Shown here piece by piece: positions 36,657 through 58,077 of a stretch of DNA of 64,000 bases; position 1 is the stretch's first letter, and each line of letters starts with the position of its first letter. Origin of the DNA: Eledone cirrhosa. Taxonomy: Eukaryota. The stretch spans positions 15,810,001 through 15,874,000 of the forward strand of contig OZ024764.1 in the NCBI GenBank assembly GCA_964016885.1, in the 5' to 3' direction. Made by a program: the position numbers and the translations under genes. The notes under the pieces are model-generated. The model saw only the letters and a list, made by a program, of their open reading frames with translations, did not search any database and had not been told where the DNA came from.

Positions 36657-36987
36657 ATATATATTCAAAATATTAACAAAAATAGATATTCTTGTGATCA
36701 AGTATATTTTATTATACATATTTCAGAGGTACTGAGTTATCTTCAACAGTACGTCCTCATCAGATAAAATAAGATGCATGACATACCCTGACATAGTAGA
36801 TGGTTAAGATTCAGTCATGACTACCATGACTGAATCTTAACCATCTACTATGTCAGGGTATGTCATGCATCTTATTTTATCTGATGAGGACGTACTGTTG
36901 AAGATAACTCAGTACCTCTGAAATATGTATAATAAAATATACTTGATCACAAGAATATCTATTTTTGTTAATATTTTGAATATATAT
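36657..36987. mobile_element. Apparently perfect palindrome (~163-bp arms, 5-bp spacer actac); Penelope pLTR-like, hammerhead in each arm
   Basis: Arms are reverse complements about 36822; the ORF track also gives the identical peptide on both strands. Confidence 0.8.
36873..36939 (+). ncRNA. Minimal hammerhead ribozyme (mirror copy on minus strand at 36705-36771)
   Basis: UAUUUUAU-CUGAUGA-GGA C GUACUG uugaagauaacu CAGUAC C UCU-GAAA-UAUGUA-UA-AUAAAAUA. Confidence 0.8.
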
Positions 36988-37571
36988 TAATAACTCTGGA
37001 AAACCTTTGTTGTGGAGTGCTTCTAATCTATTGTAAAACTCATTCTTTGATTTATTCATTGAACATTGTTTAACCTTTAAATATATATATTTATATACAG
37101 CAAGTCAAGGGTTCAAATTCTATATTATAACATTTTGGGGGTCATTTGTCATTGTCATAGCTACTATACTAAAATTTGGCAGACAGAGACTGTTTTGATG
37201 CCTGTAAAGTAGATAATTTCATCTCTGATTCAAACGTCCAGCATTTTCATACATATTGTTCCATGCTGAATCTCCCTGAGAATTATGTTATGCGTGCACA
37301 TGTCTGTGCCACTTTAATGTCAACTTCATCAGCACATTGGTCAAACAAATGTGACATTCATCGTTGCATCTGGTGAAGATCCAATGCATGTGTGTATATA
37401 TATATATTATATATATATATGTATGTATATATGTATGTACTTATTATGTATGTATGTATGTATATATATATATGTATGTATGTATTTATGTATGTGTGTG
37501 CATGTATCTATGTACTTATATATGTATGTACTTATATATATATATATGTATGTATATATATATGTATATGT

Positions 37572-37916
37572 ATGGAGGCACATGACTTAGTGGTTAGAGC
37601 ATTGGCCCTTGCAATCGAAAGATTGTGAGTTCAATTCTCAGACCAGGTGATGTGTTGTTTCCTTGAGCAAGACACTTTATTTCACATTGCCTCCAGTTTA
37701 CTCAGCTGTAGAAATGAGATGATAGGGACTGGGGGTCCTATCGTTCCACTGCAAAGTGGTCGTGGAGGGTGCCACGGCAAAAAAGCACCCAGCACTCACT
37801 GTAAATGAGGTTGGTTATTAGGAAGGGCATCCAGCTGTAGAAATCAAGCCAGAATCAGTTCCCGTCCCACCCTTGCAAGCAGGGAAAAGTGGACGTAAAA
37901 TGAAATGAAAATGAAT
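37572..37916 (+). mobile_element. CORE-like SINE family 2, full length
   Basis: tRNA-like head, core, RTE module and RTE-A tail with (aaatg)n. Confidence 0.9.
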
Positions 37917-37934
37917 GTATATGTATATATATGT

Positions 37935-38128
37935 CGGGTCACTCTTGAGTGCTTCTGATAACATGTAACCCAGTACAACCTGTCGCACGGTTGGGTCATC
38001 AGCGACTAAACCAGCAACCCCCCAAGTTTATTTGGTGAGGAGGGTGATTTTGGACACCCTGCAGGACAAAAAAAACAAAACCTGACAAAGGGCAGAAGAA
38101 CTCATAAGAGTCCATGGCCATCTGAACT
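37935..38128 (+). repeat. Dispersed repeat (inverted copy at ~56800-56978), probably a LINE 5' UTR
   Basis: taacatgtaacccagtacaacctgtc...tggtgaggagggtga..ttggacaccctgcaggac matches the reverse complement at 56.8-57.0 kb. Confidence 0.6.
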
Positions 38129-38312
38129 TCTACATATATAAATATGTATGCATGTTTGTATATATATATATATAATTTATATATATAAATGCACTACATT
38201 TCATCAAAGTTGCATATATAGTACATTATTCTATGTACTGTACATGCACATTTGATGAGTTGTAGTGCACCTGAGCACTGTACACAATAATTTCATTATT
38301 ATTATATATATA

Positions 38313-38500
38313 TGCGGTGAATTGGCAGTATCGGTAGAGGGTCGGACATGCTTTCCAGCATAGAGTTACGTCCCTTTATGATCTGAGTTCAAATCCTGCT
38401 GAGGTTAACTTTGCCTTTCATCCTTACGGGGGTCGATAAAATAAAGTACCAGTAATGCACTGGGTAATTGCTGGCCTTGTGCCTAAAGTAGAAACAATTA
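38313..38500 (+). mobile_element. SINE family 1, full length
   Basis: Matches 11928-12120. Confidence 0.9.
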
Positions 38501-54492: not shown

Positions 54493-54596
54493 AGCTACAG
54501 TTGTCCATTTGACAGGATTCTGCATAGTTTCTGCCTACCCAATTCATCTCAGAAGGCTGGGGTTGCCCAAGATTCCATGCAATAGAATTAAACCCT

Positions 54597-56365
54597 TGAC
54601 ACATGTCTGTGGTTAGGGCATTGGGCTTGAAATCAGAAGGTTGTGAGTACCGGTTGTTACATTGTGTCCTTGAGCAAGACACTTTATTTCACATTGCTCC
54701 AGTTTACTCAGCTGTAGAAATGAGCTGTGATGTCACTGGTGCCTAGCTGTATTAGACATTGCTTTTCCCTTGGACAACATATAGAGTATATATATAGTAT
54801 ATATAATTGTTTCTACTTTTGGCACAAGGCCAGCAATTACCCAGTGCATTACTGGTACTTTATTTTATCGACCCCGTAAGGATGCACTAATGCCAAGCTG
54901 TATCAGCCATTGCCTTTCCCTTGGACATCATATATAGTATATATATAGTATATATAATGTATATACAGTGTATATATGAGCTGTGATGTCACTGATGCCA
55001 AGCTGTGTCAGCCATTGCCTTTCCCTTGGACATCATATATAGTATATATAATGTATATACAGTGTATATATGAGCTGTGATGTCACTGATGCCAAGCTGT
55101 GTCAGTTCTTGCCTTTCCCTTGGACATCATATATAGTATATATAATGTATATACAGTGTATATATGAGCTGTGATGTCACTGATGCCAAGCTGTATCAGC
55201 CATTGCCTTTCCCTTGGACATCATATATAGTATATATAATGTATATACAGTGTATATATGAGCTGTGATGTCACTGATGCCAAGCTGTGTCAGCCATTGC
55301 CTTTCCCTTGGACATCATATATAGTATATATAATGTATATACAGTGTATATATGAGCTGTGATGTCACTGATGCCAAGCTGTATCAGCCATTGCCTTTCC
55401 CTTGGACATCATATATAGTATATATAATGTATATACAGTGTATATATGAGCTGTGATGTCACTGATGCCAAGCTGTGTCAGTTCTTGCCTTTCCCTTGGA
55501 CATCATATATAGTATATATAATGTATATACAGTGTATATATGAGCTGTGATGTCACTGATGCCAAGCTGTGTCAGCCATTGCCTTTCCCTTGGACATCAT
55601 ATATAGTATATATAATGTATATACAGTGTATATATGAGCTGTGATGTCACTGATGCCAAGCTGTGTCAGTTCTTGCCTTTCCCTTGGACATCATATATAG
55701 TATATATAATGTATATACAGTGTATATATGAGCTGTGATGTCACTGATGCCAAGCTGTGTCAGCCATTGCCTTTCCCTTGGACATCATATATAGTATATA
55801 TAATGTATATACAGTGTATATATGAGCTGTGATGTCACTGATGCCAAGCTGTATCAGCCATTGCCTTTCCCTTGGACATCATATATAGTATATATAATGT
55901 ATATACAGTGTATATATGAGCTGTGATGTCACTGATGCCAAGCTGTGTCAGTTCTTGCCTTTCCCTTGGACATCATATATAGTATATATAATGTATATAC
56001 AGTGTATATATGAGCTGTGATGTCACTGATGCCAAGCTGTGTCAGCCATTGCCTTTCCCTTGGACATCATATATAGTATATATAATGTATATACAGTGTA
56101 TATATGAGCTGTGATGTCACTGATGCCAAGCTGTGTCAGTTCTTGCCTTTCCCTTGGACATCATATATAGTATATATAATGTATATACAGTGTATATATG
56201 AGCTGTGATGTCACTGATGCCAAGCTGTGTCAGTTCTTGCCTTTCCCTTGGACAACATTGGTGGCGTGGAGAGGTGAGCCTGGTATGATTGGGTGACTGG
56301 TGGTCTTCCACAAACAACCTTGCCCCAGTCTTGTGCCTCAGAGGGGAACTTTCTAGGTGCAGATG
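54597..56365 (+). mobile_element. CORE-like SINE variant containing a SINE-1 fragment (54805-54885, minus) and a 94-bp minisatellite (~14 copies, 54885-56253)
   Basis: Head and core at 54597-54725. Unit gagctgtgatgtcactgatgccaagctgtgtcagccattgcctttcccttggacatcatatatagtatatataatgtatatacagtgtatatat. The probable SINE tail resumes at ~56250. Confidence 0.8.
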
Positions 56366-57334
56366 GTCATTGGTGACCAAATGAGTGGCTGCCAACTCGT
56401 TTTCGAGTACGGCCACTACTTTATATCCATGTAGGAGAACCCCTACCGATGCGCTGAACGAGTGTGACTTTTTAGTCCAGCCAACGACTTGAAAACTCTG
56501 GTACAAACACTACACTTGTGACAATTATTGACACATAGTGCTGGGCCCATGGTACCATGTGACGACAAGTGCAGAGAGATCTCCAGATATAAAGCAATGC
56601 CTGTGTCGTGAAGCTTTTATAGTGAGCAAAGGCACTGCACAAAGCCAGTCCCACTCTCTTAACCAAGATGATATTTACCAAAAAGAAGAACAAGTCAACA
56701 TCATTGGATACCATCAGAGTTGCAGGTGTTATATCAGAGTTTTCCTTCTCCTAGAATTCTGCCTTGACAAAGGCTAAGGGGTCATCTCTCCCGGTGATTT
56801 TGGATGGCTATTGACTCTTAAGAGCTCCTTTGTCCTTTGACAGGTTTTGTTTTTAGTCCTGCAGGATGTCCAAAGTCACCCTCCTCACCAAGAAACCTTG
56901 GTGGGGTTGCCAGTTTAGTCGCCAACGACCCGACCATGAGACAGGTTGTACTGGGATACATGTTACCAGTAGCACCAACTGCCAAATATACTATACATAC
57001 ATGCATGTATATATATATATATATATATATATATATATATACATGCATGAATGTATAGTATATTTGGCAATATACTGTATGTTTAATTAAAAACATTTAG
57101 AAGACCATTCGCTATTGGTTTTAAAGTAGTGACTATGTCATGTATATATATATATATATGTATATATATGTGTATATATATATATATATACATATATATA
57201 TATATCATCATCATCATCGTTTAACGTCCATCTTCCACGCTTGCATGGGTTTGGAATATATATACCTGTATATATGTATATATATATATGTATATATATA
57301 CATATATATATATATATATATATATATATATATA

Positions 57335-57682
57335 TTCATTCATTTTCATTTTCATTTCATTTTACGTCCACTTTTCCCTGCTTGCAAGGGTGGGACGGGA
57401 ACTGATTCTGGCTTGATTTCTACAGCTGGATGCCCTTCCTAACACCAACCTCATTTACAGTGAGTGCTGGGTGCTTTTTTGCCGTGGCACCTCCACGACC
57501 ACTTTGCAGTGGAATGATAGGGACCCCAGTCCCTATCATCTCATTTCTACAGCTGAGTAAACTGGAGCAATGTGAAATAAAGTGTCTTGCTCAAGGAAAC
57601 AACACATCACCCGGTCTGAGAATTGAACTCACAACCTTTCGATTGCAAGGCCAATGCTCTAACCACTAAGCCATGTGCCTCC
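57335..57682 (-). mobile_element. CORE-like SINE family 2, full length
   Basis: Reverse complement of 63052-63388. Confidence 0.9.
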
Positions 57683-57690
57683 TATACACA

Positions 57691-58077
57691 TATATATATA
57701 CGATATTAACAAATGGAAACTATATTTATAAAACCATATCTACTTTATTATACATATTTCAGGGATACCATGTTAAATTATGGTATGTTTTCATCAGACA
57801 AATACAATATATACCAGTTTTATAAATAAATATTGACGTACCCTTTCAAAATGCAACCGTTACTTTTGGAAGACATCAGGACTATCCCTGATGTCTTCCA
57901 AAAGTAACGGTTGCATTTTGAAAGGGTACGTCAATATTTATTTATAAAACTGGTATATATTGTATTTTGTCTGATGAAAACATACCATAATTTAACATGG
58001 TATCCCTGAAATATGTATAATAAAATAGATAGGGTTTTATAAATATAGTTTCCATTTGTTAATATCGTATATATATA
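57691..58077. mobile_element. Near-perfect palindrome (~190-bp arms, 6-bp spacer actatc) with a hammerhead in each arm
   Basis: Arms mirror about 57883; related to 63830-63990. Confidence 0.8.
57963..58027 (+). ncRNA. Minimal hammerhead with mutated stem II base (mirror copy on minus strand at 57741-57804)
   Basis: UAUUUUGU-CUGAUGA-AAA C AUACCAU aauuuaac AUGGUAU C CCU-GAAA-UAUGUA-UA-AUAAAAUA. Confidence 0.65.

What the first reader, a model, noticed from the sequence alone, without database searches (positions are those of the whole stretch)
36657..58077. Fold-back elements carrying a hammerhead ribozyme on each strand (36657-36987, 40125-40526, 57691-58077)
Seen: three separate 330-400 bp palindromes with one architecture. 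Two head-to-head inverted arms of 160-190 bp each carry a complete minimal hammerhead near the outer end, with an AATAAA overlapping or just after stem I. The arms are mostly unrelated in sequence between loci, so the architecture recurs rather than the sequence. The two short spacers are similar (actac, actatc). Established: Penelope-like elements carry minimal hammerheads in their pseudo-LTRs and often insert with an inverted, truncated 3' copy; retrozymes are non-autonomous hammerhead retroelements with circular RNA intermediates. Inference: these are either inverted PLE stubs or a non-coding, PLE-dependent mobile RNA family. A transcript from either strand would form a long rod-like dsRNA holding a ribozyme and its antisense, a self-silencing or viroid-like arrangement. 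This is my best candidate for an undescribed system here.
Basis: partly seen in the sequence, partly recalled or inferred. Interest (0 to 1): 0.85.

Follow-up and report, generated by a model that had tools for sequence, protein, structure and literature searches.

The report
Inverted Penelope-like retroelement end pairs
The three hairpin-shaped DNA pieces with a ribozyme motif on each strand are real, but they are back-to-back end fragments of Penelope-like jumping genes, an insertion form already described, and their centres cluster at a point that is likely the element's transcription start, which hints at how such insertions are made.

Summary
The palindromes and hammerhead motifs are real; a fourth begins at the window end. 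Each arm is the terminal repeat (pLTR) of one of three high-copy Penelope-like element (PLE) families: full-length parents with RT and C-terminal endonuclease exist for two (L137, L146), 3' ORF remnants for the third. Motifs fit the Hydra clade. Head-to-head truncated copies, a one-sided tail and hammerheads on opposite strands are in print (Cervera 2014, Arkhipova 2013, Craig 2021), and this scan noted the form in other genomes. The palindromes do not spread as units: the window's first centre recurs at 12 loci with differing source variants and the tail on either arm. What I did not find in print: arm starts pile up at one initiator-like site per family (27 of 44 stop within 16 nt, 5% expected), the similar spacers are the first 5-6 bases of that site, one arm alone carries the tail (45 of 48), and some pairs join two different source variants. 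Likely mechanism: two target-primed cDNAs run to the RNA 5' end and join. No RNA data, no cleavage test.

The parts
36657..36819 (-). Element 1 left arm: family e1 pLTR from +6 to its 3' end, no tail; hammerhead core 36763-36713
36820..36987 (+). Element 1 right arm: pLTR from +1 (the ACTAC spacer is +1..+5); hammerhead core 36881-36931, predicted cut after 36931
36988..37081 (+). Element 1 tail, right side only, followed by (TA)n
40125..40295 (-). Element 2 left arm: family e2 pLTR from +50, no tail; hammerhead core 40222-40178 with one broken stem I pair
40302..40526 (+). Element 2 right arm: pLTR starting 2 nt before +1 (40304); hammerhead core 40425-40469
40527..40621 (+). Element 2 tail, right side only, followed by (TA)n
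57691..57880 (-). Element 3 left arm: family e3 pLTR from +7, no tail; hammerhead core 57797-57749
57881..58077 (+). Element 3 right arm: pLTR from +1 (the ACTATC spacer is +1..+6), no tail; hammerhead core 57971-58019
63747..64000 (-).

Best explanation
Each palindrome is a head-to-head pair of 5'-truncated end fragments (pLTRs) of a Penelope-like retrotransposon, lying in (TA)n, likely made in one insertion event when two reverse-transcription products were joined at their far ends. Shown: arms are pLTRs of ORF-bearing PLE families; arm starts pile up at one site per family (+1); one arm ends at the pLTR end and the other about 85-95 bp further on (tail). Inferred: +1 is the pLTR transcription start; the RT-endonuclease nicks both target strands; one nick primes at the pLTR end and the other at the tail end, on the same RNA or on two RNAs; both copy towards the RNA 5' end only 170-220 nt away (a strong-stop-like product); the two cDNA ends join through 0-3 nt of pairing, often a terminal C, possibly copied from the cap, on a G at +6 or +7, which leaves the first 5-6 transcript bases as the spacer. 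The palindromes are then likely dead-end products; the hammerheads are inherited from the pLTR and would be buried in duplex in a read-through transcript.
For: Parents: L137 has e2 core+tail 5561-5875, ORF from 5935 to 8585, a second core+tail at 9717 and a long inverted copy upstream; L146 has e3 core+tail then the ORF start; L033 and L035 link e1 to thumb/endonuclease remnants about 2 kb upstream on the same strand with continuous homology. Start pile-up, queries not covering +1: 9 of 26, 16 of 26, 12 of 27 anchors start at -5..+10. Prediction noted first, then tail-only queries: 27 of 44 anchors that reach +10 stop in -5..+10, against 5.1% expected from the downstream rate, P about 4e-24; 13 of 85 start exactly at +1. 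All three sites read as BBCA+1BW initiator-like words (motif recalled; 0.010-0.016 per nt in these elements); e1 has TATATAAA 30 nt upstream. Solo copies start there too. One tailed arm in 45 of 48 pairs, P 7e-11; partner of a tailed anchor has a full tail in 1 of 55 (by hand 45 end at the pLTR end, 1 partial, 8 do not reach it). Two recurring three-base loop variants sit on opposite arms in 4 of 19 e1 pairs (L008, L022, L105, L112). An exact-pattern scan found 86 matches (81 places) of e1 head-to-head joints at +1 with many different linkers. Raw reads of run X12 show a fold-back loose end at +1 (74 reads) and all three raw-read runs show ends piling at the pLTR end. PMC11167929 reports in vitro cutting and extension of both strands, two RT start sites that bound the tail, and a predicted dimer.
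Against: No RNA evidence that +1 is a start site. A clear -30 TATA is seen only in e1; e2 and e3 lack one. The extra G is only suggestive: 7 of 13 in validation and 18 of 34 pooled against 13 of 39 in the control without C (P 0.16 and 0.07); 36 of 65 non-C rows (hand count, P 2e-4 against 1/3), but most of those G can be templated by the partner arm (9 of 16 where they cannot, P 0.05). Most pairs have matching variants (8 of 8 long pairs with the window's centre), which a single fold-back also explains. Element 3 has no tail on either arm, and 3 of 48 plus 1 of 55 pairs break the rule. e2's +1 begins with ATAT, which can pair with the (TA)n target. Samples are the top-scoring 30 loci per query, so young copies close to the query. 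No full-length e1 parent was retrieved.
Confidence: 0.62

Rival explanations
1. Same identity (inverted PLE stubs) but made by fold-back: one cDNA reaches the RNA 5' end, hairpins on itself and copies itself back; the endonuclease then trims the tail from one end.
For: Arms are identical or nearly so, sharing private variants, in 8 of 8 long pairs with the window's centre; a G(-1):C(+6) pair closing a 5-nt loop is a plausible hairpin; Craig 2021 ascribes the tail to endonuclease resolution.
Against: Cannot make arms with different recurring variants (4 of 19 e1 pairs); needs an extra step to put the tail on the +6 arm (4 of 9 tailed cases). It may still account for part of the copies.
Confidence: 0.22
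2. Self-priming on an antisense RNA template, the model offered for head-to-head Penelope repeats in Adineta vaga.
For: PMC3846280 argues for it from palindromes at inverted junctions (passages).
Against: Gives no reason for centres at a sense-strand initiator-like site in three families, for solo copies starting there, or for discordant arms, unless an antisense RNA ends exactly at +1.
Confidence: 0.08
3. The pile-up at +1 is a sequence effect (short palindromes such as CATG or TCATATGA, or pairing with the TA target), not a transcript end.
For: e2's site lies in an 8-bp palindrome and starts with ATAT; e1 has CATG at +6.
Against: e1 and e3 arms start at +1 after G, A or T with no shared pairing; e3 has no such palindrome; solo copies start there.
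Confidence: 0.05
4. A separate non-coding mobile RNA family in which the whole palindrome is copied as a unit.
For: The element 1 centre recurs exactly at 12 loci and the element 3 centre at 2; a full transcript is predicted to fold into a rod.
Against: The 12 loci carry different source variants on both arms, the tail is on the +1 arm in 5, on the other in 4, absent or truncated in 3; 55 of 55 validation junctions are distinct; arms are plain pLTRs of coding elements; the ribozyme is fully paired in the rod.
Confidence: 0.02
5. Assembly or library fold-back artefact.
For: Element 1 arms are 100% identical.
Against: Flanks are not mirrored, the tail is one-sided, arms of elements 2 and 3 differ; raw reads of another study show the fold-back joint at +1 for the family.
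Confidence: 0.01

Closest known systems
Inverted 5'-truncated copy plus tail of endonuclease-positive PLEs (PMC8557442 fig. 2; PMC3846280; PMC2377424 fig. 1C)
   Same: Head-to-head arrangement, truncated inverted copy adjacent to the 5' end, tail at one end only, pLTR with TATA and TCACT-like initiator (PMC3846280), (TA)n target.
   Different: Here both arms are often cut down to the pLTR alone with the centre at +1; tails are 85-95 bp, not 30-40 bp. I found no paper that counts the centre pile-up, the one-tail rule or discordant arms.
Dual minimal hammerheads on opposite strands in Schistosoma mansoni Cercyon PLEs (PMC4209133)
   Same: Minimal type I hammerheads 100-700 bp apart on opposite strands, long helix II with an unpaired base, short helix III with self-complementary loop; read as truncated PLEs.
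   Different: Different host and PLE families; that paper gives no junction analysis in the parts I read.
Hydra clade of PLEs (PMC8557442 section 11)
   Same: C-terminal endonuclease, RWK/RWR, DKT, CxCX5C linker, CxxC and CxH around the conserved E and N, hammerhead, (TA)n insertion.
   Different: The e2 unit is about 4.2 kb against generally under 3 kb; no tree with reference Hydra sequences was built.
Non-LTR retrozymes (bioRxiv 10.64898/2026.07.22.740005; PMC7229834 seen as a search listing only)
   Same: Type I hammerhead in pLTR-derived, non-coding sequence.
   Different: Retrozymes are head-to-tail tandem units; these are head-to-head pairs that do not spread as units.
L1 twin priming and untemplated 5' G (PMC3287187 passage for the G; twin priming seen there only as a reference title, mechanism recalled)
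   Same: Two primers from the two target strands give an inversion; RT reaching a capped 5' end can add a G.
   Different: In L1 the two cDNAs cover different parts of the RNA; here they cover the same part, which yields a palindrome.

Membership tests
Endonuclease-positive PLE | Single ORF with RT and C-terminal GIY-YIG-type endonuclease | tested here: met
   L137, L146/L147/L151 align to a 713-aa relative from residue 1 to about 700; YRDD and YIG/YVG motifs in that order. Pfam gave no significant hit for P0001 or 4 relatives, so this rests on motifs as described in PMC8557442.
Endonuclease-positive PLE | pLTRs in partial tandem around the ORF, with a hammerhead | tested here: met
   L137: core+tail before the ORF and again after it, 1.08 kb of 3' UTR repeated upstream at 97%
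Endonuclease-positive PLE | Inverted 5'-truncated copy at the 5' end; tail at one end | tested here: met
   48 of 79 and 55 of 85 anchors have an inverted partner; one tail in 45 of 48
Hydra clade | RWK and DKT motifs | tested here: met
   L137 RWK, DKT; L146 RWR, DKT
Hydra clade | CxCX5C linker; CxxC and CxH beside the conserved E and N | tested here: met
   L137, L151, P0001; decayed in the e1-linked remnants
Hydra clade | Insertion into (TA)n | tested here: met
   3' ends abut (TA)n in most loci printed; read by eye, not counted
Hydra clade | Generally shorter than 3 kb | tested here: inconclusive
   e2 unit 4156 bp (5561 to 9717 in L137); the paper says generally
Hydra clade | CCHH motif absent; RT groups with Hydra in a tree | not tested
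   No reference Hydra sequences were aligned
Non-LTR retrozyme | Head-to-tail tandem units each with a hammerhead | tested here: not met
   The window elements are head-to-head pairs
Non-LTR retrozyme / viroid-like RNA | Circular RNA and self-cleavage | not testable with these tools
   No RNA holder listed; no bench test
Non-LTR retrozyme / viroid-like RNA | The unit is copied as a whole | tested here: not met
MITE / fold-back DNA transposon | Fixed, matching inverted termini and a family-wide fixed interior | tested here: not met
   Ends differ by the tail; interiors vary from 0 to several kb including ORF pieces

The most novel reading that the evidence does not exclude
PLE palindromes are the footprint of a defined reaction: a dimeric RT-endonuclease primes one cDNA at each of the two tail-bounding start sites, one per target strand and at times on two different RNAs, both run to the capped transcript start, and a cap-copied C seeds the joint. 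The palindrome centres would then map PLE promoters to the base from DNA alone and favour twin priming over the published antisense self-priming model.
Probability: 0.4. Interest if true: 0.62.

Novelty: new member of a known kind. Interest (0 to 1): 0.38.

Why it matters
The object itself is a known PLE insertion form, so it is not a new system. Its value is as a test bed: PMC8557442 names the formation of tandem and inverted PLE structures as an open question, and these young, abundant families give sharp, countable rules (centre at +1, one tail per pair, either arm tailed, occasional two-template pairs) that an in vitro assay like that of PMC11167929 can check. It also warns that such stubs can be mistaken for MITEs or viroid-like elements in repeat annotation.

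Tried and rejected
The repeat finder on the whole window was swamped by microsatellites. Rfam in E-value mode showed only miRNA hits on microsatellites in the 150 of 588 rows listed. Pfam found nothing significant for P0001 or P0002, P0003, P0016, P0017. I first took the RT for Naiad or Nematis from memory; the domain order and motifs fit Hydra instead. The 568-codon ORF in L031 lies next to an e1 arm but was not shown to be its parent. One search was mis-aimed at a junction and gave nothing of use. No RNA holder listed: no evidence on expression either way. Reads were laid on one e1 copy (L130), not on the window loci; RAD-seq depth is site-biased and was not used as copy number. Rows dropped before counts: both-arm duplicates and the window's own locus (90 loci to 79 anchors); 3 self-hits and 2 loci without an anchor (90 to 85); TA-ambiguous starts in the G count (5 and 2; P values with them). 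BLAST ends are uncertain by a few bases, some starts near -288 are alignment breaks, and four e3 starts at +14 are probably subfamily mismatches, left uncorrected. Target-site duplications were not assessed because flanks are (TA)n. Literature searches for the start-site, strong-stop, twin-priming and cap readings in PLEs; none showed it, but the library lacks most subscription papers (Arkhipova 2006, Pyatkov 2004, Lunse 2017 not seen; names recalled or seen in reference lists). PMC12910113 had nothing relevant. The host taxon was not determined.
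Full report
1. Observation. The three palindromes are present at the stated places. Element 1 has perfect 163-bp arms around ACTAC; element 3 has 190-bp arms, 98.4% alike, around ACTATC; element 2 has 171-bp arms, 97.7% alike, around an asymmetric centre. 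A scan for type I minimal hammerheads (stem I, CUGANGA, stem II, GAAA, short stem III, UH) gave 6 hits against 0 in each of 30 shuffles. Each reads outward from the centre. The left ribozyme of element 2 has a broken stem I pair. The sixth hit marks a fourth palindrome that crosses the window end.

2. What the arms are. The window is in a 3.0-Gb genome. Each arm has many relatives at 93-100% identity (149-1287 first-look candidates per arm or tail query, lower bounds). Mapping loci to long natural copies shows that the arms are the last 170-220 bp of longer elements. For e2, L137 holds core+tail, an ORF starting 60 bp later and ending at 8585, 1.1 kb of 3' UTR and a second core+tail, with a long inverted copy upstream; for e3, L146 has core+tail followed by the ORF start; for e1, L033 and L035 carry thumb and endonuclease remnants about 2 kb upstream on the same strand. 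The ORFs show RWK/RWR, DKT, YRDD, CxCX5C, a YIG-type motif, CxxC and CxH, the features listed for the Hydra clade in PMC8557442 (section 11 read). Pfam gave no hit and no tree was built, so the clade call rests on motifs. The window itself has no PLE ORF remnant.

3. What is already in print. PMC4209133 (part 1 of 4 and passages) reports dual minimal hammerheads 100-700 bp apart on opposite strands, reads them as truncated PLEs, and finds little or no cleavage in vitro. PMC8557442 (passages; supplement searched for three words) describes the adjacent inverted 5'-truncated copy and a tail often at one end only. PMC3846280 (passages) describes head-to-head repeats, a TATA and TCACT initiator-like pair in a pLTR, and proposes self-priming on an antisense template. 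PMC2377424 (passages) places the Penelope start site and promoter within the pLTR region. PMC11167929 (parts 1-2 of 4) shows cutting and extension of both strands and two RT start sites that bound the tail. PMC8969392 (passages) lists inverted pLTRs as a curation feature. The architecture is therefore known. Two earlier notes of this scan reached the same identity in other genomes; I had reached it before reading them.

4. Do the palindromes spread as units? No. The exact element 1 centre occurs at 12 loci and the element 3 centre at 2. At the 12, the arms of a locus match each other but loci differ in their variants; the tail is on the +1 arm in 5, on the other in 4, and missing or truncated in 3. 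In an independent set all 55 junction 30-mers are distinct. A gap-tolerant pattern found 86 matches at 81 places with many different linkers. The same centre is being re-formed. A transcript through a whole palindrome is predicted to pair the ribozyme completely; there is no RNA run to test transcription.

5. Regularities. (a) Fixed start. With queries that do not cover the site, 9 of 26, 16 of 26 and 12 of 27 anchors start within -5..+10 of one position per family. After noting the prediction, tail-only queries gave 27 of 44 anchors that reach +10 stopping in that 16-nt window, against 5.1% expected; upstream the rate falls back to 0.004 per nt. The site reads TCACT (e1), TCATA (e2), CCACT or TCACT (e3); e1 has TATATAAA at -30. 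(b) One tail. 45 of 48 pairs have the tail on one arm, 2 on neither, 1 on both; the partner of a tailed anchor is fully tailed in 1 of 55. (c) Two templates at times. Two loop variants differing at three bases, each found at several loci, lie on opposite arms in 4 of 19 e1 pairs, two of them with both arms starting within 12 nt of +1; most pairs match. (d) A G at -1 is frequent but not established: 18 of 34 against 13 of 39 in the control, P 0.07; 36 of 65, many of them templated by the partner. PMC3287187 (passage) ascribes such a G in L1-driven insertions to copying of the cap.

6. Mechanism. Shown: identity of the arms, fixed start, one-tail rule, discordant pairs. Inferred: +1 is the transcript 5' end; the protein nicks both strands of a (TA)n target; one nick primes at the pLTR end and one at the tail end; both cDNAs run the short way to +1 or stop earlier; their ends join. 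This accounts for one tail per pair, on either arm, and for matching or discordant arms. A fold-back of a single cDNA explains the matching pairs equally well but not the discordant ones, and may contribute. I give 0.62 to the twin-priming version as a whole; the identity as inverted PLE stubs, common to the first four readings, is about 0.97.

7. Artefact check. Flanks are not mirrored and the tail is one-sided. In raw reads of run X12, from a study other than the best holder, 74 reads laid on a non-palindromic e1 copy have a loose end at +1 whose consensus is the reverse complement of the arm (agreement 0.77); ends pile at the pLTR end in all three raw-read runs. The +1 loose end was listed for X12 only among the rows shown (385 not shown). 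This supports the joint for the family, not for the window's three loci one by one.

8. Verdict. Real, explained, and of a known kind: new Hydra-like PLE families leaving inverted stubs. The start-site, one-tail and two-template counts were not found in my searches and make the open question of how PLEs form inverted insertions more testable. Interest 0.38.

Noticed in passing
window 63420-63745 (+), core at 63472: A further minimal hammerhead of another family (CUGAAGA, 5-bp stem II, GAAA, 4-bp stem I), read by eye; it failed my 5-bp stem I cut-off. It follows (TA)n and faces the fourth palindrome, probably a solo PLE stub.
   Followed up: partly
tails of e1, e2, e3 (L026 1668-1755 oriented, L092 1653-1738, L038 1619-1700): The three otherwise unrelated tails share ACTCC near their start and GTYGAGTGCT 20-40 nt later; in e2 and e3 these are predicted to pair. 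A candidate RT-binding or start signal.
   Followed up: partly
window 46367-49438 (-): A 1024-codon open frame beginning with an endonuclease-like N-terminus, probably a LINE; more LINE-like RT fragments at 127-1408 (+), 16777-17638 (+), 18883-19446 (-) (identity judged by eye).
   Followed up: no
window 8672-11654 (+) and 23901-24734 (-): Tandem minisatellite-like arrays that give long repetitive open frames.
   Followed up: no
L031 6748-8451 (-): A 568-codon uninterrupted PLE RT-endonuclease frame (P0001) of a young family, 90-96% alike to copies in L034, L097 and L100; its own pLTR was not identified.
   Followed up: partly
L003, L019, L041, L101, L148: Stubs of different PLE families lie directly next to or within a few hundred bases of one another at (TA)n stretches, which suggests repeated use of the same targets.
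   Followed up: no
L006, L010, L026, L073 upstream of the arm: Short perfect hairpins of non-family sequence lie just upstream of several insertions, possibly the same joining reaction acting on flank DNA.
   Followed up: no
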